Source: an uncultured Pelagibacteraceae bacterium
Lineage (GTDB): Bacteria; Pseudomonadota; Alphaproteobacteria; Pelagibacterales; Pelagibacteraceae
Length of the DNA: 64,000 nt
Direction of reading: 5' to 3'
NCBI GenBank assembly: GCA_902570695.1
Contig: CACFZE010000007.1
Location: forward strand, 11,912 to 75,911
The translations under genes were made by a program, and so were the position numbers. Within the stretch, counting starts at the first letter, position 1. Each line of letters starts with the position of its first letter. This document shows, piece after piece, positions 9,672 to 59,659 of the stretch. The notes beneath the pieces are model-generated. The model was not told the DNA's origin, did no database searches, and saw only the letters and a program-made list of their open reading frames with translations.

Positions 9672-9747
9672 TGGCTCCTCGGGCAGGACTCGAACCTGCG
9701 ACCAATTGATTAACAGTCAACTGCTCTACCAACTGAGCTACCGAGGA
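9672..9747 (-). tRNA. tRNA-Asn (GTT)
   Basis: Reverse complement TCCTCGG...anticodon GTT...CCGAGGAGCCA. Confidence 0.97.
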
Positions 9748-22674: not shown

Positions 22675-22698
22675 TTATTACTCTGTTAACAAATAATT

Positions 22699-25412: not shown

Positions 25413-25413
25413 G

Positions 25414-26169: not shown

Positions 26170-26876
26170 TGACCGAAGCACCACATACAGTAAAGTCTTA
26201 CGAAGAAGAACTTAAAAATTTAAATAGCAATATAATTAAAATGGGTGGATTTTGTGAAGAAGCTTTGGGTAAAGCTATTCAAGCAATTACTACAAGAAAT
26301 AGTGATAATGCTGAGGCAGTAATTAAAGATGATGAAAAAATTGATAAATTTGAGACTTTAATTGAACAGCAAGTAGTAAATTTAATTGCTTTAAGACAAC
26401 CTATGGCCATAGATCTTAGAGAAACAGTCACTGCTTTAAAGATATCTTCTGACCTTGAGAGAATAGGTGATTTAGCAAAAAATATTTCTAAAAGAACTCT
26501 TTTGTTAAATGAAAATTTACCAAAAAATTTAGTAGATGCTATTATAAGAGTATCTTCGGATACTCAAAAACAATTGAAATCAATATTAGATGCATATTTA
26601 GAAAGATCTTCGAGTATGGCAATTAATGTATGGGAAAGCGACGAACAAATTGATGATTTAACAAATTTATGCATGCAAGAAGTGATTAGATATTTAAAAG
26701 ATAACGAAAATAACTTAAGTGATGGAACCCACTTATTATTTGTAACTAAAAATATAGAGAGAATAGGTGATCATACAACCAACATTGCTGAGCAAGTATA
26801 TTATTTAGTTAAGGGAGAATATCTAGAGGGTGATCGACCAAAAGGCACAGAACCTATTGTTACTGGAGAAAAGTAA
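26169..26876 (+). CDS. phoU: Phosphate signalling protein PhoU
   Basis: RQPMAIDLR, DLERIGD, IERIGDH. Confidence 0.95.
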   Translation: MTEAPHTVKSYEEELKNLNSNIIKMGGFCEEALGKAIQAITTRNSDNAEAVIKDDEKIDKFETLIEQQVVNLIALRQPMAIDLRETVTALKISSDLERIGDLAKNISKRTLLLNENLPKNLVDAIIRVSSDTQKQLKSILDAYLERSSSMAINVWESDEQIDDLTNLCMQEVIRYLKDNENNLSDGTHLLFVTKNIERIGDHTTNIAEQVYYLVKGEYLEGDRPKGTEPIVTGEK

Positions 26877-26879
26877 AAT

Positions 26880-27563
26880 ATGTCGGCTCACATTTTTATA
26901 GCTGAAGACGAGGCTGCTATAATAACTCTACTAAAGTATAACCTTGAAAAAGAAGGTTACAAAGTAAGTTTCTGTGAAAATGGTGAAGATGCGCTTAAAC
27001 AAATTAAAGATAAGCTTCCTGACTTAATATTAATGGATTGGATGTTGCCCGATTTGTCAGGCGTTGAAATATGTAAAAATTTAAAAAAAGACAAAAAGCA
27101 TAATGACATACCAGTAATAATGTTAACAGCAAAAGGCGAGGAGGAGGACAAATTAAGAGCTTTTGATACAGGTGCAGATGATTATGTAACAAAACCATTT
27201 AGTCAAAAAGAACTTAATGCAAGAATTAAATCTTTACTCAGAAGATCAAAACCACAATCCACCGTTGATGTTGTTGAGTTTACAGATCTAAAAATAGATA
27301 GAATAACAAAAAGAGTTTATAGAAATAACATTGAAATATCTCTAGGACCTACAGAATTTAAATTATTAGATTTTTTTATCAAAAATCCAAAAAGGGTATA
27401 TTCAAGAGAACAACTCTTAAACAATGTTTGGGGAGAAAATATTTACGTTGAAACTAGAACTGTCGATGTGCATATCAGAAGATTAAGACAGGCTATTAAT
27501 ATAGATAATACTAAGCCTTTAATTAGAACTGTAAGATCAGCAGGTTATTCTTTAGAATCTTGA
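26880..27563 (+). CDS. phoB: Phosphate regulon response regulator PhoB
   Basis: DWMLP, GADDYVTKPF, VETRTVDVHIRRLR. Confidence 0.95.
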   Translation: MSAHIFIAEDEAAIITLLKYNLEKEGYKVSFCENGEDALKQIKDKLPDLILMDWMLPDLSGVEICKNLKKDKKHNDIPVIMLTAKGEEEDKLRAFDTGADDYVTKPFSQKELNARIKSLLRRSKPQSTVDVVEFTDLKIDRITKRVYRNNIEISLGPTEFKLLDFFIKNPKRVYSREQLLNNVWGENIYVETRTVDVHIRRLRQAINIDNTKPLIRTVRSAGYSLES

Positions 27564-28069
27564 AGGTCTTTAGGTCTAGTAAATTCTTTAATTAAACCAT
27601 TTCCATCTAATTTATTCCATTCATTAAAATCAAAATAAATTTTTGCAAATGCCGATGTCGGAAATTTGTAGTTTAATAATTTAAAATTGTTGTTGTTGTG
27701 ATTTTTTGTCAGTGATCGTATTAGATTTCTAACAGTAGGTTCATGGTTAATTAAAAGCACTGATTTATATTTTTTTGGTATTTTTTTTATTATATCTATA
27801 ATTTTATCTTCACTTGATAAGTATAATTTTTTTGAAGAAATAATTTTTTTTGGTTTATCTATTTTTTTTAATAAAATTTTTAGAGTTTTCTTTGTTCTTT
27901 TTGATGATGAAAGTAATATGTAATCAAACTTATAATTGTTTTTAACAAAAAATTCACAAATCTTTTTTGCATTTTTCTCGCCACGCTTACTTAATGGTCT
28001 TTCATGATCACCAAGATTTGGGTGGTCCCAGCTAGATTTTGCATGACGCATAACGTATAATTTAAGCAT
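27545..28069 (-). CDS. sixA: Phosphohistidine phosphatase SixA family
   Basis: MRHAKSSW, DHERPLSKRG, INHEP; true start taken at ATG 28069. Confidence 0.85.
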   Translation of the reverse strand: MLKLYVMRHAKSSWDHPNLGDHERPLSKRGEKNAKKICEFFVKNNYKFDYILLSSSKRTKKTLKILLKKIDKPKKIISSKKLYLSSEDKIIDIIKKIPKKYKSVLLINHEPTVRNLIRSLTKNHNNNNFKLLNYKFPTSAFAKIYFDFNEWNKLDGNGLIKEFTRPKDLQDSKE

Positions 28070-28082
28070 AAATTTTAAATAT

Positions 28083-30233
28083 ATGACTGCATTAAAAAAA
28101 CAAGATAAAGAAACACTAAAATCTAAATACATAAATAGAGAGCTGTCTTGGCTAAAATTCAACGACAGAGTTCTTCTTGAGGCCCAAAATTTTGAAAATC
28201 CTCTTTATGAAAGAATTAAATTTTTATCTATAGCTGGATCAAATTTAGATGAATTTTTCATGGTTCGTGTTGCAGGTTTATATAGTCAAATCAAACAAGA
28301 TGTAGATTCACTTAGTTCTGATGGTCTTACTCCTGATGAACAAATGAGTGAAGTTATTTTGGAAACAAATAATCTTCTTAATAAACAAAATAAAATATTT
28401 AGAGATTTAATTCTTCAATTAAAAAAAGCAAATATAAGTATAGTTAAACCTGAAAATTTAAGTAAAACTGAACAAAAAAGATTATTTAAAATTTTTAATG
28501 AAGAAATTTACCCTCTGCTAACCCCATCAGCAATAGACCCAGCTCATCCCTTTCCATTTATTGCAAATCAAGGAAGAGCATTAGTTATGAGATTAAATAA
28601 GAAAAATAAAAAAAGGACTTTAAATGCAATAATAGTAATTCCAAAAGCTTTATCAAGATTTATTGAAATAGATGGAAATAAAAGTTTTAAAAAATTTTTA
28701 ATTATAGATGATGTTATAAGTTTTTTTGCCTCTGAAATATTTCCTGATCATGATTTAGATAAAAAAATGTTATTTAGAGTTATAAGAGATAGTGATGTAG
28801 AAATTCAAGAGGAGGCCGAAGATTTAGTAAGATCTTTTGAATTGGCTTTAAAAAGAAGAAGGACAGGTGACATAGTACGTTTAGAAATTTTAAAAAATAG
28901 TAATAATGACCTAATTAAGTTTATAACCAATAAGTTAAACGTAAAATCTGAATACATCTATGAAATTGAAGGCATTGTTGGAATTCAAGATATAGACCAA
29001 GTTTGTAAAATTAAAAATTCTAAATTAAGATTTAAAAATTTTAATCCCAGGGAGGTTGAGAGATTAAAGGAGTTTAATAATAATTTTTTTGATACTATAA
29101 AAAAAAAAGATTTAATAGTTCATCACCCTTTTGAAACATTTGATGCTGTCGTTGAGTTTTTAAATCAAGCTGCATATGATAAAAAAGTTATAGCAATTAA
29201 ACAAACTCTATACAGAACAACGCTAGATTCTCCAATTGTTAAAGCCTTAATAACAGCAGCTGAAAATGGAAAGACAGTAACCGCTTTAATAGAGATCAAA
29301 GCAAGATTTGATGAAGAAGCAAACATTCAACTTTCAAGAAGTTTAGAAAAGGCAGGAATTCAAATAGTTTATGGTTTTGCAAAATATAAAACACATGCAA
29401 AATCATCTTTAATATTAAGAAAAGAGCAGGGAAAAATTCAAACTTATATACATCTGGGAACTGGCAATTATCACCCAGTTAATGCAAAAATTTATACTGA
29501 CTTATCTTTATTTAGTTCTGATAAAAAATTAGCAACTGATGTGGAAAAATTTTTTAATTATGTAACTGGTTATTCAAAACCACGAAATCTTAGTAAAATA
29601 TCTATATCACCAATTAATCTTAGGGAAACCTTGAACAAATGTATTGCTAACGAGATAACAAATGTCAAAAAAGGTAAAAAAGGTGAAATATGGGCCAAAA
29701 TGAATTCCTTAGTAGATCCAGCGATAATTGATAAATTTTACGAAGCTTCAAATGCTGGAGTAAAGATATTTTTATTTGTAAGAGGTGTTTGTTGTTTAAG
29801 ACCTGGAGTTAAAGATAAATCTGAAAATATAATAGTTAAAAGCATGATTGGAAGATTTTTGGAACACTCAAGAATTTATTGTTTTGCAAATGGAAAAGCA
29901 ATGCCTAGTAGAGATGCAAAAGTTTTTATTTCATCAGCAGATTTAATGCCAAGAAATTTAAATCGAAGAGTAGAACTTCTAGTTCCAATTGAAAACCAAA
30001 CAGTCCACGAACAAGTTCTTGATCAAATTATGTTAGCTAATTATTTAGATAAAAAACAAAGTTGGGAACTTGATGCTAATGGAAATTATAAAAAAATTAA
30101 ATATAGTGAAAATGATTCTTTTTCAGCCCATGATTATTTTATGAATAATCCTAGTTTATCTGGAAGAGGTAAAGCTAAATTAAAAATGAAACCAAAAAAA
30201 TTAAATTTAAGATTAATTAAAAGTGGAAATTAA
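28083..30233 (+). CDS. ppk1: Polyphosphate kinase 1
   Basis: NRELSWL, HHPF, KARFDEE, GTGNY, GRFLEHSR. Confidence 0.96.
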   Translation: MTALKKQDKETLKSKYINRELSWLKFNDRVLLEAQNFENPLYERIKFLSIAGSNLDEFFMVRVAGLYSQIKQDVDSLSSDGLTPDEQMSEVILETNNLLNKQNKIFRDLILQLKKANISIVKPENLSKTEQKRLFKIFNEEIYPLLTPSAIDPAHPFPFIANQGRALVMRLNKKNKKRTLNAIIVIPKALSRFIEIDGNKSFKKFLIIDDVISFFASEIFPDHDLDKKMLFRVIRDSDVEIQEEAEDLVRSFELALKRRRTGDIVRLEILKNSNNDLIKFITNKLNVKSEYIYEIEGIVGIQDIDQVCKIKNSKLRFKNFNPREVERLKEFNNNFFDTIKKKDLIVHHPFETFDAVVEFLNQAAYDKKVIAIKQTLYRTTLDSPIVKALITAAENGKTVTALIEIKARFDEEANIQLSRSLEKAGIQIVYGFAKYKTHAKSSLILRKEQGKIQTYIHLGTGNYHPVNAKIYTDLSLFSSDKKLATDVEKFFNYVTGYSKPRNLSKISISPINLRETLNKCIANEITNVKKGKKGEIWAKMNSLVDPAIIDKFYEASNAGVKIFLFVRGVCCLRPGVKDKSENIIVKSMIGRFLEHSRIYCFANGKAMPSRDAKVFISSADLMPRNLNRRVELLVPIENQTVHEQVLDQIMLANYLDKKQSWELDANGNYKKIKYSENDSFSAHDYFMNNPSLSGRGKAKLKMKPKKLNLRLIKSGN

Positions 30234-31734
30234 AGTTTTAAAAAATAATCAAAATTTGAAATTAAAACCTGCTAAATTAGCAGTAATTGATATAGGTTCC
30301 AATTCTATCAGGATGTTAATCTATGAAGATTTTAACTCATCTCGTGTGCCTTTTTTCAATGAAAAAGCCGTTTGTGAACTTGGTAAAAATTTAGATAAGT
30401 CAAGAAAACTTCATAAATCTGGTGTGGATTATGCCCAAAAAGTATTGAAGAGATTTTCAGAAATTTTAAATGTTTCCAAAATTGTTAATTTAAAAATAAT
30501 AGCAACTGCTGTTTTAAGAGAAGCAACAGATTCAAAACCCTTTGTTGAATACGTAGAAAACCTTTTTAAAAAAAAAATAGAAATCTTAAGTGGTGACGAA
30601 GAAGCAATTTGTTCAGCTGAAGGTGTTAAAATTGGATTTGATAATGTAGATGGGTTAGTTGCTGATCTTGGTGGAGGAAGTTTAGAATTGGCTAGAGTTG
30701 AAAATGGTTTGATTACTAATAAAACATCTTTTCCCTTAGGTGTTTTAAGACTACTTAATAATCCAATTGTAAAAAAGAGAAACCTTTCTAAATATATAAA
30801 ACAACTTTTGAGAGAAGAGAAATGGTTATCTAAAAAAAAATTTCAAAATTTGTATTTAGTTGGAGGAACATGGAGAGCTTTATTTAAACTTCATCTGTTT
30901 CAAAATAAACATCCTGTCCATATAATTCATCAGTATTCAGTAAATTATGAAACTATATCATCATTTGTAGAAAAAATAGCATCGTTTAATAAAGCAAAAC
31001 TAAAAACAGTTGAATATATATCTAAATCTAGAACACCTTATCTACCATATAGCTCTATTATTTTAGATGAGATCATGAAAGTCACAAATCCAAAAAACAT
31101 AATTTGTTCTATAAGCGGTATTAGAGAGGGATCTCTAGCAAAAGATTACTTTAAAAATATTGATAACTCTCAAGTTTTTGAAAAATCATTAGAATATATT
31201 TCGAAGAAGAGAGGTGATTTGGGATTAACCTACAAAAAGTATCATGAATTTATCAAACCTGTATTTGACGGTAATGAACATTTTAATGAAAAATTACTTA
31301 ATTTAGCTTGTGTTTTAAGTCATATGGATTGGGGACTAGGTGCTTTTCAAAAGGCAGAATTAGTTTTTCAAGAAACATTAAATACCCCTTTATTGAGACT
31401 TTCACATAAAGAAAGAATTCAAATAGCTCTTTCATGTTATTGGAGGTACTGCAGTATTAAATACAATCCAAAAATAGAATATTTAACTTTTTTAAATAAT
31501 AATGAAATTTTTTCTAGTAAACAAGTTGGTGCAGCCTTAAGATTTGCACACTCACTTACATCTATTTCAACTATCTTCTTAGAGGAATTCAAATTGTATA
31601 AAAGAGGTAACTCTGTATTTTTAAAAATTCCAGCTCAACACCAAGAAATAATTTCTAAACAAGTTACAAAAAGATTTAAAGCTCTGGCGAGAGAATTATT
31701 TTTAGAACCAAGAGTAATTTATTCAAATAATTAA
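30223..31734 (+). CDS. ppx: Exopolyphosphatase (Ppx/GppA family)
   Basis: IDIGSNSIR, DLGGGSLE, GGTWR, GIREG; GTG start. Confidence 0.92.
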   Translation: MEIKVLKNNQNLKLKPAKLAVIDIGSNSIRMLIYEDFNSSRVPFFNEKAVCELGKNLDKSRKLHKSGVDYAQKVLKRFSEILNVSKIVNLKIIATAVLREATDSKPFVEYVENLFKKKIEILSGDEEAICSAEGVKIGFDNVDGLVADLGGGSLELARVENGLITNKTSFPLGVLRLLNNPIVKKRNLSKYIKQLLREEKWLSKKKFQNLYLVGGTWRALFKLHLFQNKHPVHIIHQYSVNYETISSFVEKIASFNKAKLKTVEYISKSRTPYLPYSSIILDEIMKVTNPKNIICSISGIREGSLAKDYFKNIDNSQVFEKSLEYISKKRGDLGLTYKKYHEFIKPVFDGNEHFNEKLLNLACVLSHMDWGLGAFQKAELVFQETLNTPLLRLSHKERIQIALSCYWRYCSIKYNPKIEYLTFLNNNEIFSSKQVGAALRFAHSLTSISTIFLEEFKLYKRGNSVFLKIPAQHQEIISKQVTKRFKALARELFLEPRVIYSNN

Positions 31735-34074: not shown

Positions 34075-34614
34075 TTAGTTTGTTGCAAATTCTTTAATTT
34101 TCTCAAAACTGAAGTGATCGGCTATATCTTTCTTGGCGTAGTATACTTCATCAACTGTGCCTTGTTCGTTTATCAAAACATCTGTAACAGCTATATCAAA
34201 ATGACCTTTAATTTTTAAAGGAATATATCCCTTTAACATTGCAGGTATTATTTTATGAGATTTAAATAGCATTGCAGATAATGTTTTCATCATTGATCTT
34301 TCAATTTCATATTTTTGAAAATATTTAAAATCTTCATCGGCTAGTACAGTAAAAGGTAAATTGTTATGTTTTTTCATATATGACCTTAAATTATCAACCG
34401 GCGAGTGAAATATTGCAACATGTGTAAAATTATTTCCTAACTCATTAAATCTTTTATTAATTTCGTTTAATCTAAGATTGCAAAAACTACATCCAGCTAT
34501 TCTGTAAAAAGTTAAAAGAACTTTCTTTCCATGTGTTTCTGATAAATTAAATGTAGACCCGTCATCTCTTGGAAGTGTAATTTCTTCTATTTTATCTCCT
34601 TTGGAGATCTTCAT
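34075..34614 (-). CDS. Redoxin / AhpC-TSA-like thioredoxin-fold protein
   Basis: FYRIAGCSFCNL CxxC; ATG overlaps the zur TGA. Confidence 0.8.
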   Translation of the reverse strand: MKISKGDKIEEITLPRDDGSTFNLSETHGKKVLLTFYRIAGCSFCNLRLNEINKRFNELGNNFTHVAIFHSPVDNLRSYMKKHNNLPFTVLADEDFKYFQKYEIERSMMKTLSAMLFKSHKIIPAMLKGYIPLKIKGHFDIAVTDVLINEQGTVDEVYYAKKDIADHFSFEKIKEFATN

Positions 34615-35009
34615 TTGATAGAGCATTTTTTACAAAGCCCAAAGAATTCAAGATTATATTTATTGAATTTCATACCCGCTTTGTCTTGAAAATTTTTTAA
34701 ATATTTTGAAAGTTTGCTGTCACTAATTTCACTTACTTCTTCACAGCTTTCACATATTGAAAATGCTGTTGCCTTTGAGATCTGACAATTTGAATTTTTA
34801 CATGCAACGAAAGCATTTCTACTTTCAATTTTGTGAATTTTTCCAATTTCAACCAATTTATCAAGCGCTCTATAAACTTGAAGAGGGGCTTTAATACCTT
34901 TTTTTTGCACATTATGTAAAATTGAATAAGCTTTTATGGGCTCATTTACTTTTTCAATGAAATCAAGAACTATTCGTTGATTTTTTGATAGTGTTTCCTG
35001 TTTAAGCAT
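34611..35009 (-). CDS. zur: Zinc uptake regulator
   Basis: Fur fold, VYRALDKL, HKIES, CESC and CKKC; in the znu operon. Confidence 0.88.
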   Translation of the reverse strand: MLKQETLSKNQRIVLDFIEKVNEPIKAYSILHNVQKKGIKAPLQVYRALDKLVEIGKIHKIESRNAFVACKNSNCQISKATAFSICESCEEVSEISDSKLSKYLKNFQDKAGMKFNKYNLEFFGLCKKCSIK

Positions 35010-35033
35010 AGTTTTTCTTTTATCAATTTCCCA

Positions 35034-35837
35034 TTAGTTTTTCAATTGTATCGTCTGTTTAATTTTAAATAGAGATATTACAAATAATAATAACGCTGCA
35101 GCAATGATAGATGGACCCGAAGGAGTATTGAATTGCAATGAAGAAAATAAACCCATGATTACTGATAATAATCCTCCACATATAGAAAAAATTACCATCT
35201 TTTTGGGAGTATCTGATATGTTACGAGCCATAGCCGTTGGTATAATTAACATCCCAGTTATTAATAAAAGTCCTACAATTTTTATAGAAATTGCAATTAT
35301 TGCTGCCATTAAAATAGTAAATATTGCTTTTGCTCTATCAGGATTTAATCCTTCTGCTTCTGCAAGTTCATAATTTACTGTTGAAGCAAATAAAGGTTTC
35401 CAAATTATTTTTAATACAATTAAAATTATTGCTCCTCCTCCCCATATAATTATCAAATCATCAACATTAACAGCTAATATGTCTCCAAATAATAGTCCCA
35501 TGACATCAAATCTTATAAATGAGAGAAAACCAATTACCACTAAGCCAACTGCTAATGCTGAGTGAGCTAAAAGACCAAGTAAAGCATCACCGGGCAAATT
35601 AGTATTTTTTTCAAGTTTAACTAATATGATTGCTATTACTGATGAAATGATAAATATCGAAATTGCTATATTAATTTCGAATGCCAATGCCATTGTAACA
35701 CCAAGTAATGCTGAATGTGCTAATGTATCTCCGAAATAAGATAATCTTCTCCAAACTACAAAGCAGCCCAAAGGACCTGTTACAAAAGCAACACCTATAC
35801 CAGCAATTAAAGCTCTTATAAAAAAATCATCAAACAT
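35034..35837 (-). CDS. znuB: Zinc ABC transporter permease
   Basis: GDTLAHSALLG, LAEAEG, GPSII. Confidence 0.92.
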   Translation of the reverse strand: MFDDFFIRALIAGIGVAFVTGPLGCFVVWRRLSYFGDTLAHSALLGVTMALAFEINIAISIFIISSVIAIILVKLEKNTNLPGDALLGLLAHSALAVGLVVIGFLSFIRFDVMGLLFGDILAVNVDDLIIIWGGGAIILIVLKIIWKPLFASTVNYELAEAEGLNPDRAKAIFTILMAAIIAISIKIVGLLLITGMLIIPTAMARNISDTPKKMVIFSICGGLLSVIMGLFSSLQFNTPSGPSIIAAALLLFVISLFKIKQTIQLKN

Positions 35838-36584
35838 TTAATTTTTTTTTATATCACCATCATTTGAATGAACATGATCATGCTTATGTTCATATATAGA
35901 AAGAGTTTGTGAAGCTTGTTCGCCAAATAACAGTTTATACTCATTATTCATTGCAACGTCTTTTGGTGTTCCTGAACAACACACGTGGCCATTTAAACAA
36001 ATAACATGATCTGTTGCTGTCATAACAGTATGCAAATCATGAGAAATTAATAAAATTCCACAATTTAATTTATCTGCTATTTCTTTTATTAATTTATACA
36101 ATGCAATCTCCCCAGTAAAATCAACTCCTTGAACCGGCTCATCCAATACTAAAAGATCAGGTTTTTTTGAAACTGCTCTTGCAAGAAGCACTCTTTGAAA
36201 TTCTCCACCAGATAAATTTCCTAAATTCTGGTTTTTAAGATGATCTGCACCCGTTAATTTTAAAGCTTCATTTATTTTTTCTTCATCGAGTTCATCTGTT
36301 AAAACCATAAAATCACTCACTTTAAGTGGCAATGTCCAGTCAATTGAAATCTTTTGAGGAACATATCCAATTTTATCAGTAAATTTTTCTACATTGCCTT
36401 CTATATTCTTATGAAGTCCTATCGCAATTTTTGCAGTTGTGCTTTTGCCAGAACCATTTGGCCCAATTAATGTTACTATCTTTCTTCTTTCAACAATTAA
36501 AGAAACACCTTTTACAAGCCATTTATTCCGTTGTTTTAATCCAACTTCAGTTAATTTTACTAATACATTGTTCTCAATTGTCAT
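35838..36584 (-). CDS. znuC: Zinc ABC transporter ATPase
   Basis: GPNGSGKST, LSGGEFQR, His-rich C-terminus. Confidence 0.93.
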   Translation of the reverse strand: MTIENNVLVKLTEVGLKQRNKWLVKGVSLIVERRKIVTLIGPNGSGKSTTAKIAIGLHKNIEGNVEKFTDKIGYVPQKISIDWTLPLKVSDFMVLTDELDEEKINEALKLTGADHLKNQNLGNLSGGEFQRVLLARAVSKKPDLLVLDEPVQGVDFTGEIALYKLIKEIADKLNCGILLISHDLHTVMTATDHVICLNGHVCCSGTPKDVAMNNEYKLLFGEQASQTLSIYEHKHDHVHSNDGDIKKN

Positions 36585-36656: not shown

Positions 36657-37799
36657 ATGAAAAACTTAAAAAAATCAACATTAATAATTACAATATTATC
36701 TTTTTTAGCTCTTTTTACATCAGCAAAAGCAGAAATAAAAGTTGTAGCTTCAATTAAGCCTATACACTCTTTAGCTAGCTATCTGATGGATGGAGTTGCT
36801 AAACCAGACCTAATAGTCGATGGATATTCTTCACCACATGGATTTCCGTTAAAACCATCTCATGCAAAGATGTTACAAGAAGCTGATCTTATTTTTTGGG
36901 TAGGTGAAGATCTAGAAAACTTCATGGAAAAACCATTAGATTCAATTGCAAAAAAAGCTGAAAAAATTGAATTAATGGAAATTAAAGGTCTTAATAAATT
37001 AAAATTCAGAGAACGAAATATTTTTGGTGATCATGATGATCATGACGATCACGGACATAAAGAAGATGGCCATAAAGAAGATGATCACGATGATCATGAC
37101 CATAAAAAGAAAGATGGACATGACGACCACGATGATCACGACCACAAAAAAAAAGACGGTCATAAAGAAGACGACCACGATGATCATGACCATAAAAAGA
37201 AAGATGGGCATGACGATCATGATGACCATGGACATAAAAAGAAAGATGACCATGATGACCACGATGATCATGCAGGACATGAAGGTCACCACCACGGTGA
37301 GCATGACCCACATATTTGGTTAGATCCAATGAATGCTAAAGTTATATTAAATGAAATGGCAGAGCATTTAATTGAAAATGATGCTAAGAACGCATCAAAA
37401 TATAAAAGCAATTTAAAGAAAGCACTAAAAGATATTGATAAACTTGTTAGTGACGTCTCTTCTGAATTAAATCAGAGTGTTGCATCAATTGTTTTCCATG
37501 ATGCTTACCAATATTTTGAGAAAAGATTTAATGTTAATATATTGGGTGCTTTTACAGTTAATACAGATGTAATGCCAGGAGCAGAACAATTGGCTGAAAT
37601 CAGAGAAATAATTGAGCATGATAAAGTAGCTTGTGTATTTTCTGAACCACAGTTTAATCCAAATATCATTAAAGCTGTAGCAAAAGATATGAATATTAAA
37701 ACTGGTGTTGTAGACCCATTAGGAGCTACTTTGGATCCTGGAAAAGACTTATATTTTGATTTAATCAGAAATATGTCTAAATCTTTTAAAGGTTGTTAA
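36657..37799 (+). CDS. znuA: Zinc ABC transporter substrate-binding protein with a very long His/Asp loop
   Basis: SIKPIHSL, SPH, DPHIWLDP, FHDAYQYFE, DPLG. Confidence 0.93.
   Translation: MKNLKKSTLIITILSFLALFTSAKAEIKVVASIKPIHSLASYLMDGVAKPDLIVDGYSSPHGFPLKPSHAKMLQEADLIFWVGEDLENFMEKPLDSIAKKAEKIELMEIKGLNKLKFRERNIFGDHDDHDDHGHKEDGHKEDDHDDHDHKKKDGHDDHDDHDHKKKDGHKEDDHDDHDHKKKDGHDDHDDHGHKKKDDHDDHDDHAGHEGHHHGEHDPHIWLDPMNAKVILNEMAEHLIENDAKNASKYKSNLKKALKDIDKLVSDVSSELNQSVASIVFHDAYQYFEKRFNVNILGAFTVNTDVMPGAEQLAEIREIIEHDKVACVFSEPQFNPNIIKAVAKDMNIKTGVVDPLGATLDPGKDLYFDLIRNMSKSFKGC
37029..37313 (+). repeat. His/Asp/Lys coding repeat in znuA
   Basis: (HDD)n and HKKKDG units; identical 32-mer CACGATGATCATGACCATAAAAAGAAAGATGG at 37086 and 37176 (90-bp period). 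Confidence 0.9.
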
Positions 37800-51384: not shown

Positions 51385-54261
51385 TTAAGCAGTTTTTTTA
51401 AATTTTGTATCTAATAAAGGCTTTAAAAATTTACCTGTATAGCTATCTTTCACTTTTGCAACTTCCTCGGGTTTACCTTCGGCAATAATATTTCCGCCTT
51501 TAACACCACCCTCGGGTCCCATATCTACAATATAATCGGCAGTTTTAATAACATCTAAATTATGCTCAATAACTACAACTGAATTACCCGTTGCAACAAA
51601 GGTGTGCAATATTTCCAAAAGTTTTTTTATATCATGTTGATGTAATCCAGTAGTTGGTTCATCTAATATATACATTGTTCTTCCTGTAGATCTTTTAGAT
51701 AATTCTTTAGCAAGCTTAATACGCTGAGCCTCTCCACCAGAAAGAGTTGTAGCTTGCTGACCAATTTTTATGTAGCCAAGACCAACTTTCTTTAACGTTA
51801 GAAGTTTAGTTTTGATGTTTGAAATATTTTCAAAATACTCACACCCTTCATCAACAGTCATATTTAAAACATCTGCAATACTCTTATCTTTGAATTTAAT
51901 CTCTAATGTTTCTCTGTTGTATCTAGTACCTTTGCATTCATCGCATGTTATGTAAACATCAGGAAGAAAGTGCATTTCGTAAGTAATTACACCATCTCCT
52001 TCACATGCTTCACATCTTCCACCCTTTACATTGAAAGAAAATCTTCCAGGTTTATAGCCTCTACTTTTTGCTTCAGGTAAATTGGCAAACCAGTCTCTTA
52101 TAGGACCAAAAGCTCCAGTATATGTAGCAGGATTTGATCTAGGAGTTCTACCAATAGGTGATTGATCAATATCTATAACTTTATCAATTAATTCTATTCC
52201 TTTAAATCCTCTAAATGGCTGAGGAATTTTTCTAGACTTATTATTATTCAAAGTAAGATTTAATGCATTGTATAAAGTTTGAAGTATCAAAGTAGATTTA
52301 CCACTTCCAGATACACCAGTAACACAAGTGAAACTACCTAAAGGTATTTTTAAATTTACGTTATTTAAATTATTTCCCGATGCACCATTGATTTCTAAAA
52401 ATCTACCATTTTTTGCAAGTCTTCTATTTTTTGGTATAGGTATGAAACTCTTATTTGATAAATATCTTCCAGTAATACTTTTATCATTTTTTAAAATTTG
52501 CTCATAGGTACCTTCGGCAACAATTTCTCCACCTTTATTTCCAGCTTCAGGTCCTAAATCTATTATATGATCTGCATTCTCCATTGTTTCTGTATCGTGT
52601 TCAACAACAATAACAGTATTACCTAAGTCTCTTAATCTTTTTAATGCATCTATAAGCTTAACATTATCTTTTTGATGTAAACCAATTGATGGTTCATCTA
52701 AAACGTATAGAACTCCAGTTAAACCTGATCCTATTTGTGAAGCTAGTCTAATCCTTTGTGCTTCACCACCAGATAATGTTCCAGACTCTCTAGATAAAGT
52801 TAAATAATCAAGACCAACATTTAAAAGAAAATCTAAACGTTCATTAATTTCTTTTAATATATGTTGTGCAATTTTAATTTGTCTTTTATCTAATTTAACT
52901 TCTAAAGATCTAAACCATTCCTTAGCATCAAAAATTGATTTTTCTGTAACTTGGCTAATGTTTAATTCATTTATTTTAACACACAGAGCTTCATCTTTTA
53001 ATCGATAACCATTGCATCTTTCACATTTTGTATCAGATTGATATTGAGCAATTTCTTCTCTTTTCCAATCGCTATCTGTTTCTAAATATCTTCTCTCTAG
53101 ATTATTGACTACACCTTCAAAGGTTTTTTTGTGCGAATATTTTTCATAACCATCGTCATAAGTAAATTTAATTTCTTCATCATCAGATCCATACAAAATT
53201 ACATCCTTAATTTTTTTTGGTAGTTTTGACCATTTATCATCTAATGAAAAACCATAATGTTTAGATAAAGATGCTAATGTTTGGGCGTAATACATTGATG
53301 TAGATTTTGCCCAAGGTTCAATAGCACCATCTGCTATAGATTTTTTTTCATTTGGAACAACTAAATTTGGATCAACATTTAATTTCATTCCAATACCCTC
53401 ACATTCTTCACAGGCTCCGTAAGGACTGTTAAATGAAAAGAGTCTTGGTTCAATTTCTTCAATAGTAAAACCACTTTCAGGACAAGCAAATTTGGTTGAG
53501 AAAATTAATTTTTCAATTTTTCTGTATTTTTTTGGAAGTGTTTCATTTTCATATTCAACGAAAAGTAATCCATTTGCTAAATTAACAGCTGTTTCAACAC
53601 TTTCAGCTAATCTGTTTCCTAATGAGGAATTTATTACAATTCTATCAACTAAAATTGAAATATCGTGTTTAAGTTTTTTATTTAACTCTGGAACACTTTC
53701 AATATCATACAATTGGTCATCAACTTTAATTTTTCTAAATCCTCTTTTTTTATATCCTAATATATCTTTTTTATATTCACCCTTACGTCCTCGCACGACT
53801 GGAGCGTATAAATATATGGTTGATTTTTTTGGTAATTCTTTAATCTTATCAACAATTTGACTAATAGTTTGAGAAGTAATTGGTTTACCTGTAAATGGAG
53901 AATAGGGTATTCCTGCTCTTGCATAAAGTACCCTCATGTAGTCATATATCTCAGTAACGGTTGCAACTGTTGATCTTGGATTTTTAGAAGTATTTTTTTG
54001 TTCTATTGAAATTGCTGGACTCAAACCTTCGATTAAATCCACATTTGGTTTTTTCATTTTGTCTAAAAACTGTCTTGCGTATGCAGATAAACTTTCAACA
54101 TATCGTCTTTGACCTTCTGCATAGACAGTATCGAATGCTAATGATGATTTTCCTGACCCAGATAGACCCGTTATTACAACAAATTTGTCTTTAGGAATCT
54201 CTAGTGAAATATTCTTTAAATTGTGCTCTTTTGCGCCCTTAATAAGTATCTTTTTAAGCAT
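51385..54261 (-). CDS. uvrA: Excinuclease ABC subunit A
   Basis: Two ABC cassettes ([26 protein letters not shown] twice) and Zn fingers. Confidence 0.98.
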
Positions 54262-54792: not shown

Positions 54793-57366
54793 ATGCAAAA
54801 AAACGAAGTAACTAAGGATTCAAATATCAAACCAATTTCAATGTATGATGAAATGAGTTCATCATATTTATCTTACGCCATGAGCGTAATAATTAGTAGG
54901 GCATTACCCGACATAAGAGACGGTCTTAAACCTGTTCACAGAAGAATTTTATATGCAATGCACAAAGGTGGTTTTGATTGGTCAAAACAATTTAGAAAAT
55001 CTGCAAGAATTGTTGGAGACGTAATTGGTAAATATCATCCGCATGGTGATCAAGCTGTGTATGATGCCTTGGTTAGAATGGTTCAAGATTTTTCAATGAG
55101 TGTTCCTTTAATTGATGGTCAGGGCAATTTTGGTTCAATTGATGGTGATCCACCTGCAGCAATGAGGTATACAGAAACAAAACTTGCAAAAATATCTCAA
55201 TTTTTGATTGATGATATAGAAAAAAATACTGTCTCATTTAAAAGTAACTACGACGAAACTGAGCAAGAACCCACAGTATTGCCTGCTCAATATCCTAATC
55301 TTTTGGTAAATGGAGCCGGAGGTATCGCTGTTGGTATGGCTACTAGTATACCACCACATAATCTTGGTGAAATTATTGATGGAACTTTAGCGCTTATAAA
55401 AAATAAAGATATTAAAGTTAAAGAGTTAATGAAGCATATACCTGGCCCTGATTTTCCAACTGGTGGAGTTATTATTGGTAAAGATATTATTCGAGAAGGA
55501 TACAAAACTGGCAGAGGTTCTTTTAAAATTAGAGGTGAGATAAATGTAGAAAATCTTAAAAATGGTAAAGATAGATTAGTAATTACTTCAATACCTTATC
55601 AAGTAAACAAATCTAACTTAAATGAAAAAATTGCAGAATTGGTTAGAGACAAAAAAATCGAGGGTATAAGTGACATTAGAGATGAATCTAATAGAGAAGG
55701 TATAAGAGTTGCAATCGATCTAAGAAGAAGCGTTGAGCCCGAGACAATCAAAAGACAACTTTATAAATATACATCCATTGAAACCTCGTTTGGTTTTAAT
55801 TCATTAGCCATTGTTGATAATAAGCCTAAAACATGTTCATTAAAAGATTTTTTAGAGAACTTTTTAAAATTTAGAGAAGATGTAGTCATTAAAAAAACTA
55901 AATATGATTTAAAAAAAGCCGAAGATCGTGTTCATGTCTTACTTGGTTTATCTGTTAGTGTAGAAAATATCGATAAAGTAATTAAAATTATTAGATCTTC
56001 AAAAAATCCAGAAGAAGCAAAAAATACTCTTATAAAAACTAAATGGAAAATAACAAAATCTGCAAAATTAATTAAATTAGTTGATAGTAAAAATTATAAA
56101 GGATCATATAATTTATCTGAAACTCAAGTTACATCAATACTAGAACTTAGATTACAAAAATTAACCGCCCTTGGAATTAATGAAATTGAAGACGAAATAA
56201 AAAAATTATCTGAATTGATTACAAAGTATAAAAAAATAATAAATTCTAAAACTGAACTATTAAAAGTAATAAGTAATGAGTTATCTCAAATTAAAGAGAA
56301 ATTCTCATCTCCGAGAAGAACGCAGATTATAGATGCTGTATTAAACTATAATATTGAAGAAACTATTCAAAAAGAGTCTGTAATAATTACAATTACTTTA
56401 CAAGGATACATTAAAAGAGGCGCTTTAAGTAATGTTAAACAGCAAAAAAGAGGTGGTAAAGGCAAAACTGGAATTAAGACAAGAGATGAAGATTCTGTAG
56501 TACAAACATTATCGGTAAACACTCACACATCTGTACTATTTTTCTCTACAGAAGGATTAGCATATAAAGTTAAAGCTTGGAAAATTCCGGAAGGATCAGC
56601 TGCATCAAAAGGTAAGTCTTTATTTAATATTCTTCCTCTAAAAAATCATCAATCAATTAGTTCAATTATGCCATTTCCAGATAGTGATGTTGATACAAAA
56701 GACATGCATATAATTTTTGCAACAAGTGAAGGAAAAATTAGAAAGAATAATCTTGAAGATTTTACCTCAATTAATGCTTCAGGTAAAATTGCAATGAAAC
56801 TTGACGGTAATGATAAAATTATTGGTGTTAAAATTTGTAGAGATGATCAGGATATAATTTTAAGTACTAAATTAGGAAAATGCATAAGGTTTGAGTCAAA
56901 AAAACTTAGAGTTTTCAAAGGTAGATCATCAAAAGGTATAAGAGGTATCAATTTAGCAGAAAATGATACTATTGTATCTCTGTCTATTATTGATCATGAC
57001 TCAAATAAGAAAGCAAAAACTAAGGATCATAAATCAGAAATTAAAGCTAAAGAAAAGTTCATTCTGTCTATTACAGAGAATGGTTATGGTAAGAGAACAT
57101 CTCACTATGATTATAGAGTTACAAATAGAGGGGGAAAGGGAATTATTGGTATTGTCAATTCACAAAGAAACGGGAATGTTTCTTCATCCTTTCCAGTTTT
57201 TGAAGGAGATCAGATATTAATTTCAACAAATAAAGGTAGAGTAATAAGAACAGCTGTTAAAGAAATAAGAATAGCTGGTCGTAATACACAAGGTGTTAGA
57301 ATAATTAAACTGACTGGTGATGAAAAAGTAGTTTCTGCTATTAAATTAGATGATAATCTCATCTAA
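54793..57366 (+). CDS. gyrA: DNA gyrase subunit A
   Basis: AAMRYTE active site; GyrA-box QKRGGKG distinguishes it from ParC. Confidence 0.97.
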
Positions 57367-57860
57367 TGAAAAATATAGCTATCTATCCAGGAACTTTTGA
57401 TCCAATTACTTTCGGCCATATAGATGTCATTAAGAAATCACTTAAGATAGTAGATAAAGTAATTGTAGGTATTTCAGATGGAAATCAGAAAAACTTTCTA
57501 TTTTCATTAGAAGAAAGAATAGAAATTGTTAAAAGAGCTCTTTATAAAGATCTGAAATTTAAAAAGAATAAGGTTGATGTTATAAAATTTAATACTTTGA
57601 CAACAGACCTTTGCAAAAAATATAAATCAAATATCATTTTAAGAGGCCTAAGGGCTGTTTCAGATTTTGAGTATGAATTCCAATTAGCTGGAATGAATAG
57701 AAAACTTAATAATCAAGTTGAGACAATTTTTTTAATGTCAGATGTTGAAAATCAAATAATATCATCCAGATTTGTTAAAGAAATCGCTCAACACAATGGT
57801 GATTTAAAAAAATTTACAACTAAAAGTACAATTAAATCATTGAAAGAGGTTTATGAATAA
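57366..57860 (+). CDS. coaD: Phosphopantetheine adenylyltransferase
   Basis: YPGTFDPITFGH, RGLRAVSDFEYE. Confidence 0.96.
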   Translation: MKNIAIYPGTFDPITFGHIDVIKKSLKIVDKVIVGISDGNQKNFLFSLEERIEIVKRALYKDLKFKKNKVDVIKFNTLTTDLCKKYKSNIILRGLRAVSDFEYEFQLAGMNRKLNNQVETIFLMSDVENQIISSRFVKEIAQHNGDLKKFTTKSTIKSLKEVYE

Positions 57861-58410
57861 ATTTTTAAATATTTTAATTATTTTTTTTATTTTTTTATCA
57901 ACAAATTTAATAGCAAAGGAGAATATAATGATTTTAAAATTAAAAGATGGTGATGTAAAAATTGAAATGTATCCAGATGTTGCCCCAAATCATGTTAAAA
58001 GAATTCAAGAGTTAGCAAATTCAGGACAATACGATAATGTTGTTTTTCACAGAGTAATTGATGGTTTTATGGCACAAACAGGTGATGTAAAATTTGGAAA
58101 TTCATCTTCAAAAGATTTTGATTTAAGAAGAGCGGGTATTGGTGGATCTGATTTACCAGATTTAAATCAAGAATTTAATGACCTTCCTCATGATAGAGGA
58201 ACCGTTTCTATGGCAAGATCATCAGATCCTAATAGTGCCAATAGTCAATTTTTTATATGTTTTAAACCAGCACCTTTCCTGGATAGACAATATACTGTTT
58301 TTGGAAAAGTGATAGAAGGAATGGAATTCGTTGATATGATTACAAAAGGTGATGGCGATAATGGAGCAGTTTCAAATCCAGATAAAATTATTAGTTTTAA
58401 ATCTCAATAA
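57853..58410 (+). CDS. Cyclophilin-type peptidyl-prolyl isomerase
   Basis: FHRVIDGFMAQTGD, SANSQFFI, YTVFGKV. Confidence 0.93.
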   Translation: MNKFLNILIIFFIFLSTNLIAKENIMILKLKDGDVKIEMYPDVAPNHVKRIQELANSGQYDNVVFHRVIDGFMAQTGDVKFGNSSSKDFDLRRAGIGGSDLPDLNQEFNDLPHDRGTVSMARSSDPNSANSQFFICFKPAPFLDRQYTVFGKVIEGMEFVDMITKGDGDNGAVSNPDKIISFKSQ

Positions 58411-58420
58411 TTAATAATGA

Positions 58421-59533
58421 ATGTCATTAAAAGATTTCAATTTTAATGTTCATCACACTCAAAATTATGCAAGAGTAGGAGTTATAGAGACTCATAGAGG
58501 AAATATTAATACTCCTGCGTTTATGCCAGTTGGTACACAAGCAACTGTTAAAGGTGTTTTTTTAGAGGATATTAAAAAAACAGGTAGTGAGATCATCTTA
58601 TCAAATACATATCATCTAATGATAAGACCTGGTGTTGACAGAATCGAAAATGTTGGAGGACTTCATGAATTCATGAATTGTGATCTTCCGATTCTAACCG
58701 ACTCTGGTGGCTTTCAAGTAATGTCTCTGTCGAAATTAAATAAAATTGATAGAGATAAGGGTGCAATTTTTCAATCACATATTGATGGTAAAACTTTTGT
58801 TTTAAGCCCTGAAGAAAGTATAAGAATTCAAAAAGGTTTGAACTCAGACATAGTGATGGTTATGGATGAATGCCCTAAAAATACTAAAGACTATAATAAA
58901 ATTAAAAAATCAATGGAATTGTCATCCGAGTGGGCAAAAAGATCAAAAGATGCATTTGGAATAAATGATCACAAAGGTTTATTTGGAATAGTGCAAGGTG
59001 GATTATTTAACGATCTAAGAATAAAATCCTTAAATAACCTTATTGACATTGGATTTAATGGGTATGCGCTTGGAGGATTGGCAGTTGGGGAAACACAAGA
59101 TGAAATGTTTGACGTTCTTGATGGAATAAAAGATCATATGCCTAAAGATAAACCAAGATATTTAATGGGTGTTGGTACTCCATCTGATATACTCGGAGCA
59201 GTTAAGAGGGGTGTTGATATGTTTGACTGTGTAATGCCAACGAGATCTGGGAGAACTGGTTTGGCTTTTACATGGGAAGGACAAATTCAAATTAGAAACT
59301 CAAAATATAAAAATGATAATACTCCACTGGACAGAAGTGTCACAAAGTTCAATTTAAATAAATATTCTAAGAATTATTTAAATCATTTATTTAATACCAA
59401 CGAAATGTTGGCCTCAATGATTCTGACCCTTAATAACATCAACTTTTATCAAGATTTAATGAGAAACATCAGAGACAATATAAAACATGGTACTTTTGAT
59501 GAATTTCACGATAAGTACATCAATAAATTGTAA
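58421..59533 (+). CDS. tgt: tRNA-guanine transglycosylase
   Basis: FMPVGT, SNTYHL, TDSGGFQ, MDEC, GGLAVGE, DMFDCV; Zn-binding motif absent. Confidence 0.95.
   Translation: MSLKDFNFNVHHTQNYARVGVIETHRGNINTPAFMPVGTQATVKGVFLEDIKKTGSEIILSNTYHLMIRPGVDRIENVGGLHEFMNCDLPILTDSGGFQVMSLSKLNKIDRDKGAIFQSHIDGKTFVLSPEESIRIQKGLNSDIVMVMDECPKNTKDYNKIKKSMELSSEWAKRSKDAFGINDHKGLFGIVQGGLFNDLRIKSLNNLIDIGFNGYALGGLAVGETQDEMFDVLDGIKDHMPKDKPRYLMGVGTPSDILGAVKRGVDMFDCVMPTRSGRTGLAFTWEGQIQIRNSKYKNDNTPLDRSVTKFNLNKYSKNYLNHLFNTNEMLASMILTLNNINFYQDLMRNIRDNIKHGTFDEFHDKYINKL

Positions 59534-59583: not shown

Positions 59584-59659
<76 letters not shown>

What the first reader, a model, noticed from the sequence alone, without database searches (positions are those of the whole stretch)
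58421..59533. tRNA-guanine transglycosylase lacking all four structural zinc ligands
Seen: residues 302-340 (PLDRSVTKFNLNKYSK...ILTLNNINFY) align without gaps to the bacterial TGT Zn site (Zymomonas CxCxxC...H, C318/C320/C323/H349, recalled), with V307, K309, L312 and N338 at the ligand positions. Catalytic Asp motifs (TDSGG, MDEC, DMFD) and the preQ1-type Cys/Val pocket (DEC, GGLAVGE) are intact and the ORF is full length, so it does not look decayed. Inference: a Zn-free TGT, a zinc-sparing adaptation analogous to Cys-minus ribosomal-protein paralogues, consistent with the expanded ZnuA loop in this window.
Basis: partly seen in the sequence, partly recalled or inferred. Interest (0 to 1): 0.7.

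Follow-up and report, generated by a model that had tools for sequence, protein, structure and literature searches.

The report
SAR11 tRNA-guanine transglycosylase without zinc site
This Pelagibacter (SAR11) gene encodes an otherwise normal, expressed and strongly conserved tRNA-guanine transglycosylase that has lost all four residues of the zinc site regarded as a hallmark of the enzyme family, a loss that is not unique because it is shared by all sampled SAR11 and, in another form, by the Hyphomicrobiales.

Summary
ORF 58421-59533 (+) is a full-length bacterial Tgt (TIGR00430 459 bits; 53% identity and TM 0.93 to Z. mobilis TGT). V307, K309, L312 and N338 align without gaps to Zn ligands C318, C320, C323 and H349.

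The catalytic Asp residues, the preQ1 pocket and the dimer-interface residues are intact. dN/dS is about 0.04, also within the former Zn subdomain. Marine metatranscriptome contigs cover the gene.

The variant is not a curiosity of this genome:
- All 240 SAR11 homologues lack Cys-2 and Cys-3. States run CLLH/CILH, then CNLH/VKLH, then VKLN; this window is the zero-ligand end state.
- All ~135 Hyphomicrobiales sequences carry S-C-A-x, with queA still beside tgt.
- About 25 of 150 diverse TGT cluster representatives lack two or more ligands.

No searchable paper describes this, and the Zn domain is called a "hallmark" of TGTs.

Most likely this is a functional, Zn-independent Tgt in which packing has replaced the metal. 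It would act in the truncated "tgt-only" preQ1-salvage route already proposed for Pelagibacter.

"Zinc-sparing adaptation" is plausible but unproven. For it: a Zur-ZnuABC locus with a giant His-rich ZnuA loop, and eroded UvrA Zn modules. Against it: the same loss in soil Hyphomicrobiales, and no Zur box at tgt. I rate this a new variant of a known kind, of moderate interest.

The parts
58421..59533 (+). tgt: tRNA guanosine(34) transglycosylase, 370 aa, preQ1-type, lacking all four Zn ligands
   Evidence: TIGR00430 459 bits (cutoff 306.75) and PF01702 474 bits. Z. mobilis TGT E=4e-124. AF2 pLDDT 85.7, Foldseek TM 0.93.
59339..59356 (+). Former CxCxxC loop, now V307-T-K309-F-N-L312
   Evidence: Ungapped alignment to Zm C318-H-C320-A-V-C323. 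L312 is present in 240 of 241 SAR11 sequences.
59432..59434 (+). N338 at the position of the fourth Zn ligand (Zm H349)
   Evidence: Among 241 SAR11 sequences this position is N in 123 and H in 116.
58697..58711 (+). TDSGG motif, residues 93-97 (D94 = Zm D102, catalytic)
   Evidence: Invariant in alignment A1.
58862..58873 (+). MDEC motif, residues 148-151 (D149 = Zm D156; C151 = Zm C158, preQ1 pocket)
59072..59092 (+). GGLAVGE, residues 218-224 (V222 = Zm V233, E224 = Zm E235): preQ1-type pocket
   Evidence: The same motif is noted for Pelagibacter in PMC11570991.
59216..59227 (+). DMFD, residues 266-269 (D269 = Zm D280, nucleophile)
54793..58410 (+). Upstream co-directional genes gyrA, coaD and a cyclophilin-type PPIase. 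This is the conserved synteny block, with no queA between ppi and tgt.
   Evidence: Synteny is conserved in L001-L011 and in Hyphomicrobiales, where queA is inserted.
9672..9747 (-). tRNA-Asn(GUU), a Tgt substrate with the C32-U33-G34-U35 loop
   Evidence: ARAGORN; loop sequence CTGTTAA.

Best explanation
This is the single, orthologous, functional bacterial Tgt of a Pelagibacter (SAR11 Ia-like) genome. It exchanges G34 of tRNA-Asn/Asp/His/Tyr for a 7-deazaguanine, using the standard Asp nucleophile (D269), D94, and the preQ1 pocket (D149, C151, L220-A221-V222, E224).

What differs is the C-terminal subdomain. In every characterised TGT it is clamped by a structural Zn(Cys3His). Here ordinary side chains take those positions: V307 and the SAR11-invariant L312 are hydrophobic, and K309 and N338 are polar. 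The enzyme should therefore fold, dimerise and bind tRNA without zinc.

The loss was stepwise along the SAR11 lineage. Cys-2 and Cys-3 went first, leaving C-x-L-H, which cannot form a tetrahedral site. The remnant Cys-1 and His then decayed repeatedly, and this window is the zero-ligand end state. A loss affecting different ligands is fixed in Hyphomicrobiales.

I therefore think the Zn clamp is structurally dispensable and its loss is mainly compensated or near-neutral. Any zinc or cysteine economy is at most a secondary benefit. In the cell the enzyme most likely inserts salvaged preQ1, because genus Pelagibacter lacks preQ1 synthesis and QueA/QueG (literature).

Shown: sequence state, conservation, selection, distribution, predicted fold, transcript coverage. 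Inferred: absence of bound metal, activity, substrate, and the reason for the loss.
For: Family membership and ungapped ligand mapping.

Lineage-wide state: V/I-K-L-N in 110 of the 120 closest homologues. A graded series among GTDB Pelagibacteraceae species, CLLH then CNLH/VKLH then VKLN. The set of 120 relatives of L009 is mainly CLLH 68 and CILH 30, with several variants that also lost Cys-1 or His (TILH 6, CILN 6). L312 is fixed in 240 of 241.

Purifying selection: dN/dS 0.046 and 0.040 at unsaturated dS of 0.25 and 0.38, with residues 296-345 equally constrained (dN 0.016). Mean column entropy there is 0.73, against 0.74 overall.

Conserved residues across SAR11 and Hyphomicrobiales: K44, F84, Y315, Y319, H322 and E328 (the Zm dimer-interface positions K52, F92, W326, Y330, H333, E339), plus D94, D149, C151 and D269.

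Structure: AF2 pLDDT is 87-95 across residues 300-345, and TM is 0.93 to Zm TGT. Expression: metatranscriptome contigs cover the gene in three runs.

Ligand-less TGTs work elsewhere. All sampled Hyphomicrobiales are S-C-A-x yet keep queA next to tgt. The S. meliloti tgt mutant phenocopies queC and queF (PMC3568095). B. henselae TGT complements E. coli and Q/preQ1 is detected in its tRNA (PMC11570991).

Genus Pelagibacter has 34 TGT, 0 QueA, 0 QueG, 0 QueH and 0 QueF. queA is absent from the window and from all SAR11 loci.
Against: No metal content or activity has been measured for any ligand-less TGT. The ligand state of the two experimentally studied Hyphomicrobiales enzymes (S. meliloti, B. 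henselae) was not read directly; it is inferred by phylogenetic bracketing from Mesorhizobium, Devosia, Bradyrhizobium and others.

AF2 does not model metals and inherits the fold from homologues, so high pLDDT does not prove stability without Zn. In E. coli Tgt, mutating the Zn ligands lowers Zn content and activity (Chong et al. 1995, cited; details from my own knowledge), so compensation must exist but has not been identified.

The Zn-scavenging context (Zur-ZnuABC, His-rich ZnuA loop) and the eroded UvrA Zn modules favour an adaptive component more than my 'mainly neutral' reading allows.
Confidence: 0.75

Rival explanations
1. Zinc-sparing adaptation: selection in Zn-poor surface ocean removed the Zn requirement of Tgt, as part of a proteome-wide reduction of the zinc quota.
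For: The same window holds a Zur-family regulator and znuBC/znuA with two Zur-box-like palindromes. ZnuA carries a ~95 aa His/Asp-rich loop. UvrA in the window has lost two of four ligands of Zn module 1 and one of four of module 2. The Q pathway is known to be Zn-sensitive, with Zn-sparing replacements such as QueD2 and FolE1B.
Against: The same kind of loss is fixed in soil and plant-associated Hyphomicrobiales and scattered through ~17% of diverse TGT clusters. Long-lived two-ligand intermediates (C-x-L-H) are already Zn-incompetent, so the later steps save no zinc. There is no Zur box at tgt, and no Zn-containing paralogue was seen. One structural Zn in what is presumably a low-abundance enzyme saves little (inference). 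The Zur structural CxxC pairs and UvrA module 3 are retained.
Confidence: 0.25
2. Cysteine (reduced-sulfur) economy: SAR11 depends on exogenous reduced sulfur, so Cys-rich sites are purged and zinc loss is a by-product.
For: Cys makes up only 0.82% of 19,384 residues encoded in the window. Three of the four lost ligands are Cys. The SAR11 requirement for reduced sulfur is from my own knowledge (Tripp et al. 2008).
Against: The non-ligand Cys C151 and C270 are invariant, and an extra Cys (C87) is present. Cys-1 persisted in many SAR11 subclades long after Cys-2 and Cys-3 were lost. Hyphomicrobiales, which are not sulfur auxotrophs, lost Cys-1 and Cys-3 too.
Confidence: 0.1
3. The subdomain still binds a metal through alternative ligands (for example D304, H322, E328, or residues from the partner subunit).
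For: D304, H322 and E328 are invariant and lie in the same subdomain.
Against: These residues are equally invariant in CCCH enzymes, where they serve other roles (H322 = Zm H333 and E328 = Zm E339, both in the dimer interface). No new Cys or His appears in the loop. The positions replacing the ligands are aliphatic (V, L) or variable (K/L/I/N, entropy 1.75).
Confidence: 0.05
4. The protein is no longer a tRNA transglycosylase. It is a relic or moonlighting protein retained after the Q pathway was lost from Pelagibacter.
For: Genus Pelagibacter lacks queA, queG/H and preQ1 synthesis, so canonical Q cannot be made.
Against: All catalytic and pocket residues are invariant and dN/dS is ~0.04. The gene appears in metatranscriptome contigs. 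The analogous 'tgt-only' B. henselae enzyme is active on preQ1. Substrate tRNA-Asn(GUU) has the UGU loop.
Confidence: 0.07

Closest known systems
Zymomonas mobilis / E. coli bacterial Tgt (queuine tRNA-ribosyltransferase, EC 2.4.2.29; PDB 1PUD, 1OZM and others)
   Same: 53% identity and TM 0.93. It has the same (beta/alpha)8 barrel plus C-terminal subdomain, the same catalytic Asp residues, the preQ1 pocket (Cys/Val type) and the dimer-interface residues.
   Different: All four Zn ligands (C318, C320, C323, H349) are replaced by V, K, L and N. F98 stands where Zm has Y106. No queA is adjacent.
Hyphomicrobiales Tgt (Mesorhizobium, Bradyrhizobium, Methylosinus, Devosia; by inference S. meliloti SMc01206 and B. 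henselae bTGT)
   Same: About 50% identity, with shared gyrA-coaD-ppi-...-tgt synteny. The canonical Zn site is also absent, and both are preQ1-type GGLAVGE enzymes.
   Different: Different residues are retained: S-C-A-x keeps Cys-2, whereas the basal SAR11 state C-x-L-H keeps Cys-1 and His. Most keep queA and the full Q pathway.
'tgt-only' preQ1 salvagers described by Quaiyum et al. 2024 (Bartonella, Pelagibacter)
   Same: This is the same organism group and the same pathway context: Tgt plus the QPTR transporter, without QueA/QueG, and with a GGLAVG pocket.
   Different: That paper does not mention zinc at all (0 occurrences). The missing Zn site is additional to what it describes.
Zinc-independent replacements of Zn proteins (C- ribosomal proteins L31/L36/S14, DksA2, QueD2, FolE1B)
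   Same: A protein that normally carries Zn exists in a form without the Cys ligands.
   Different: Those are extra paralogues, usually Zur-induced, that coexist with the Zn form. Here the sole orthologue itself has changed, it sits in a housekeeping gene cluster, and no Zur box precedes it.

Membership tests
Bacterial Tgt (TIGR00430 / PF01702) | Profile score above the curated equivalog cutoff | tested here: met
   TIGR00430 459.1 bits against a cutoff of 306.75; PF01702 474 bits against 26.3.
Bacterial Tgt (TIGR00430 / PF01702) | Catalytic aspartates (Zm D102, D280) and substrate-binding D156 | tested here: met
   D94, D269 and D149 are aligned and invariant in 56 sequences.
Bacterial Tgt (TIGR00430 / PF01702) | preQ1-type pocket (Zm C158, L231-A232-V233, E235) | tested here: met
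   C151 and GGLAVGE 218-224.
Bacterial Tgt (TIGR00430 / PF01702) | Structural Zn(Cys3His) site, described as a 'hallmark' of TGTs (PMC6165067) | tested here: not met
   V307, K309, L312 and N338 occupy the four positions, with no nearby Cys or His substitutes. I therefore file it as a Zn-site-less variant of the family, a member by homology and catalytic apparatus but not a canonical member.
Bacterial Tgt (TIGR00430 / PF01702) | (beta/alpha)8 barrel plus C-terminal helical subdomain fold | tested here: met
   AF2 pLDDT 85.7 and pTM 0.88. Foldseek TMq 0.93 and rmsd 2.0 A to 4gd0 and 1ozm. This is a prediction only.
Bacterial Tgt (TIGR00430 / PF01702) | Homodimer interface hot-spot residues (Zm K52, F92, W326, Y330, H333, E339) | tested here: met
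   K44, F84, Y315 (Trp replaced by Tyr), Y319, H322 and E328. Residue roles are from my own knowledge of the Zm TGT literature.
Bacterial Tgt (TIGR00430 / PF01702) | Guanine/preQ1 exchange activity on tRNA with U33-G34-U35 | not testable with these tools
   Only the substrate was checked: tRNA-Asn(GUU) with loop CUGUUAA at 9672-9747.
Bacterial Tgt (TIGR00430 / PF01702) | Pathway context (queA adjacent, queG/H, preQ1 synthesis) | tested here: not met
   tblastn finds no queA in the window or in 11 SAR11 loci, while it is adjacent to tgt in ~50 other loci. Genus counts are QueA 0 and QueG 0.
Zur-regulated zinc-sparing paralogues | Coexistence with a Zn-containing paralogue | tested here: inconclusive
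   All 240 SAR11 homologues retrieved lack two or more ligands, but whole genomes were not searched.
Zur-regulated zinc-sparing paralogues | Zur box in the promoter | tested here: not met
   The palindrome TGTTATAtTATAACA is found only at 36605 and 36623 (znuC/znuA intergenic region) and weakly at 17380, with none at 54-58.4 kb.

The most novel reading that the evidence does not exclude
The Tgt Zn-site loss is one visible piece of a systematic, selected dismantling of structural Zn(Cys) sites in SAR11: Tgt is fully stripped and UvrA modules 1 and 2 are partly eroded, while uptake is boosted by a giant His-rich ZnuA loop. This would lower the cellular zinc and/or cysteine quota in the oligotrophic ocean. 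The graded C-x-L-H to V-K-L-N series would then track ecotype adaptation.
Probability: 0.2. Interest if true: 0.65.

Novelty: new variant of a known kind. Interest (0 to 1): 0.45.

Why it matters
TGT is a textbook Zn enzyme. Z. mobilis TGT is a heavily used structural and drug-design model, with well over a hundred PDB entries among the matches, and the Zn subdomain is described as a family hallmark that scaffolds tRNA binding and carries the dimer interface.

Natural Zn-ligand-free versions are fixed in the most abundant marine bacterial clade and in the whole order Hyphomicrobiales. That shows the metal is dispensable for this fold. These enzymes also offer ready-made systems for studying how a Cys3His clamp is replaced by packing.

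It matters for metalloproteome predictions too. Annotation pipelines transfer 'Zn-binding' to these proteins, so estimates of the zinc quota of SAR11, and reasoning about the Zn-sensitivity of the queuosine pathway, would be wrong for these lineages.

It adds a feature to the unresolved question of what the 'tgt-only' Pelagibacter enzyme does. It is not a new enzyme class or mechanism.

Tried and rejected
1. Sequencing or decay artefact: rejected. There are hundreds of concordant homologues and dN/dS is ~0.04.
2. A solved structure of a ligand-less TGT: none found. All top PDB hits are Z. mobilis variants, and 10fa/10fb and 2ash are more distant; I did not inspect their Zn sites.
3. Direct reading of the S. 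meliloti or B. henselae Tgt Zn site: failed. The search seeded with L024 ('Rhizobium sp. Q54') returned Alsobacter/Beijerinckiaceae-like proteins rather than Rhizobiaceae. The Bartonella paper's supplements hold no sequences.
4. Taxon names for the divergent ligand-less clusters: only Devosia was named; the rest are anonymous metagenome proteins.
5. Literature on Zn-less TGT: four searches found nothing. Subscription-only papers are not covered.
6. queA elsewhere in the window: none. No QPTR-like hit (PF02592) appeared among the 50 window ORFs scanned.
7. Independence of the SAR11 and Hyphomicrobiales losses: the NJ tree separates them, with CCCH clades between. It has no bootstrap support, and the shared synteny leaves a single early loss of Cys-3 possible. 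Unresolved.
8. The depth spike downstream of tgt in RNA runs is tRNA-Lys(UUU), not a new RNA.

Full report
OBSERVATION

The ORF at 58421-59533 (+) is real, full length (370 aa, ATG start) and lies 10 bp after the preceding gene. It scores 459 bits on the NCBIfam Tgt equivalog TIGR00430 (cutoff 306.75) and 474 bits on PF01702. It aligns to Z. mobilis TGT over residues 6-364 at E=4e-124. The only gap is near residue 183, and the C-terminal half is ungapped.

In that alignment Zm 'PLDSECHCAVCQKWS...TEHNIAFYQ' pairs with 'PLDRSVTKFNLNKYS...TLNNINFYQ'. The protein has only three cysteines (87, 151, 270), none in this region. TDSGG (93-97), MDEC (148-151), GGLAVGE (218-224) and DMFD (266-269) are present.

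IS IT A LIVE GENE?

Against close relatives where synonymous sites are not saturated (L001 dS 0.25; L011 dS 0.38), dN/dS is 0.046 and 0.040. Within residues 296-345 alone, dN is 0.016 against dS of 0.22-0.38. Column entropy in that segment (0.73) equals the protein average (0.74) over 241 SAR11 sequences.

In a 56-sequence alignment spanning SAR11 and Hyphomicrobiales, the catalytic and pocket residues D94, D149, C151 and D269 are invariant. So are the residues that in Z. mobilis form the dimer interface within the Zn subdomain: K44, Y315, Y319, H322 and E328 are invariant and F84 is nearly so.

AlphaFold2 gives mean pLDDT 85.7 and pTM 0.88, with 87-95 across residues 300-345. Foldseek places the model on Z. 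mobilis TGT at TM 0.93 and 2.0 A. AF2 does not model metals, so this shows compatibility with the fold, not stability without zinc.

Contigs from marine metatranscriptomes cover the gene in three of four runs examined. A substrate, tRNA-Asn(GUU) with a C-U-G-U-U-A-A loop, lies at 9672-9747.

HOW WIDESPREAD IS IT?

Among the 120 closest proteins (at least 81% identity, named Candidatus Pelagibacter where named) the four sites read VKLN in 85 and IKLN in 25. The rest are near variants (VNLN, TKLN, VKLS) or keep a remnant Cys-1 or His (CNLH, IKLH, CKLN).

GTDB species representatives of Pelagibacteraceae show a graded series:
- CLLH at 66% identity (L009).
- CNLH at 77% (L006, L008, L010).
- VKLH at 75% (L007).
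- V/I-K/R-L-N at 81% and above.

A search seeded with L009 returned 120 further SAR11 proteins: CLLH 68, CILH 30, TILH 6, CILN 6 and others. So every sampled SAR11 Tgt lacks Cys-2 and Cys-3, Leu at the Cys-3 position is fixed in 240 of 241, and the remnant Cys-1/His pair has been lost several times. The window carries the zero-ligand end state.

The loss is not confined to SAR11. All Hyphomicrobiales species representatives lack three or four ligands, with an S-C-A-x type pattern. These include Methylosinus ACAI, Bradyrhizobium SWTI, Mesorhizobium SCSN, Alsobacter SCAV, Hyphomicrobium SCAV, Pseudolabrys SHAI, Roseiarcus SSAI and Tardiphaga SWAI. So do all 120 relatives of L024 and Devosia (SNCI).

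Among 150 representatives of clusters no more than ~50% identical to each other, 116 are CCCH, about six are truncated, and about 25 full-length proteins lack two or more ligands. I found no description of it, however. Four literature searches were negative. The one paper that discusses Pelagibacter Tgt never mentions zinc. The structural literature calls the Zn-binding domain one of the 'two hallmarks of TGTs' (PMC6165067).

ONE LOSS OR SEVERAL?

A neighbour-joining tree built without the Zn-region columns puts SAR11 and Hyphomicrobiales in separate clades, with CCCH Acetobacterales and gut alphaproteobacteria between them. The retained ligands also differ: Cys-1 and His in basal SAR11, Cys-2 in Hyphomicrobiales. 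This favours independent decay.

The tree has no support values, though. The gyrA-coaD-ppi-(queA)-tgt arrangement is shared by SAR11 and Hyphomicrobiales but not by the CCCH alphaproteobacteria examined. A single early loss of Cys-3 followed by divergent decay is therefore not excluded.

DO LIGAND-LESS TGTS WORK?

Hyphomicrobiales keep queA immediately upstream of their ligand-less tgt, which would be pointless if Tgt were dead. In S. meliloti the tgt mutant phenocopies queC and queF mutants and, unlike them, is not rescued by preQ1 (PMC3568095). B. henselae Tgt complements an E. coli queDF tgt mutant given preQ1, and preQ1 and Q are detected in its tRNA (PMC11570991).

I could not read the Zn site of those two proteins directly. 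Their ligand-less state is inferred from relatives in the same order.

PATHWAY CONTEXT

queA is absent from the window and from all 11 SAR11 loci, but it is adjacent to tgt in about 50 other loci. Quaiyum et al. count 34 TGT, 0 QueA, 0 QueG, 0 QueH and 0 QueF for genus Pelagibacter, whereas the order as a whole has some (19 QueA per 115 TGT). They propose that Pelagibacter Tgt and the QPTR transporter salvage preQ1.

The present enzyme fits that proposal with its GGLAVGE, Cys/Val pocket. No QPTR-like hit appeared among the 50 window ORFs scanned.

WHY WAS THE SITE LOST?

For a zinc-economy reading:
- The window holds a Fur/Zur-family regulator (34614-35009, -), znuB, znuC and a divergent znuA.
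- ZnuA has a ~95-residue His/Asp-rich insertion.
- Two Zur-box-like palindromes sit in the znuC/znuA intergenic region.
- UvrA in the window has S and T where B. stearothermophilus UvrA has the Cys and His of Zn module 1, and CPES for CPYC in module 2. Module 3 is intact.

Against it:
- The same loss occurs in soil and plant-associated Hyphomicrobiales.
- The long-lived C-x-L-H intermediates already cannot hold a tetrahedral zinc, so the later steps save nothing.
- No Zur box precedes tgt, and no CCCH-type homologue appeared among the SAR11 proteins retrieved.
- One structural Zn in what is presumably a low-abundance enzyme saves little (inference).

A cysteine-economy reading is suggested by the window's low Cys content (0.82%). 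It is weakened because the non-ligand Cys C151 and C270 are retained, an extra C87 is present, and Cys-1 persisted for a long time.

My best reading is that the zinc clamp is structurally dispensable and was lost in a compensated, largely neutral way. Any metal or sulfur economy would be a secondary benefit, and I give the adaptive zinc-sparing version about 0.25.

VERDICT

It is a new, apparently undescribed variant of a very well-known enzyme, fixed across SAR11 and also across Hyphomicrobiales. It is not a SAR11-specific invention, and the adaptive interpretation is unproven.

Interest is moderate at 0.45. It contradicts a textbook 'hallmark' and is easy to test, but loss of structural Zn sites is a familiar evolutionary theme and no new mechanism is implied.

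Noticed in passing
window 51388-54261 (-): UvrA (958 aa). Compared with B. stearothermophilus UvrA (2r6f), Zn module 1 has lost its N-side ligands ('rpiCptHg' becomes 'ipySpfTg'; C413 and C416 are kept). Zn module 2 has three of four Cys (CPES...CEEC). Zn module 3 (C750, C753, C773, C776) is intact. Erosion of structural Zn sites may extend beyond Tgt.
   Followed up: partly
window 36657-37799 (+), with 34614-36584 (-): ZnuA has a ~95 aa His/Asp/Lys-rich repetitive insertion (DHDDHDDHGHK... motifs). It is divergently transcribed from znuC, znuB and a Fur/Zur-family gene. Two Zur-box-like palindromes, TGTTATAtTATAACA at 36623 and a one-mismatch copy at 36605, lie in the intergenic region.
   Followed up: partly
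window 59584-59659 (+): tRNA-Lys(UUU) lies 50 bp downstream of tgt. It accounts for a sharp depth peak (up to ~740x word depth) in metatranscriptome contigs.
   Followed up: yes
window 57853-58420 versus L029 3707-5992 and L019 3270-5640: SAR11 has gyrA-coaD-ppi-tgt with one PPIase gene and no queA. Hyphomicrobiales have coaD-ppi-ppi-queA-tgt. queA (and one ppi copy) was apparently excised cleanly from a conserved block, leaving only 10 bp between ppi and tgt.
   Followed up: partly
window 21643-31734 (+): A large phosphate-acquisition block: pstS-like PBP, pstC, pstA, pstB, phoU, a phoB-like response regulator, polyphosphate kinase (716 aa) and Ppx/GppA. Together with the znu locus, this points to a nutrient-scavenging region.
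   Followed up: no
L014 6001-7104 (Sphingomonadales MAG): This Tgt has a 3-residue deletion inside the former CxCxxC loop (pattern S-TH). It is a ligand-loss variant outside SAR11 and Hyphomicrobiales, in the same order as the CCCH model organism Z. mobilis.
   Followed up: no
window 58421-59533, residue F98: The residue stacking on the substrate base (Zm Y106) is Phe here, as in eukaryotic QTRT1 (Phe109). It is Phe in nearly all SAR11 and Hyphomicrobiales sequences. That is why the Zm Y106F mutant (1ozm) is the top PDB hit.
   Followed up: no
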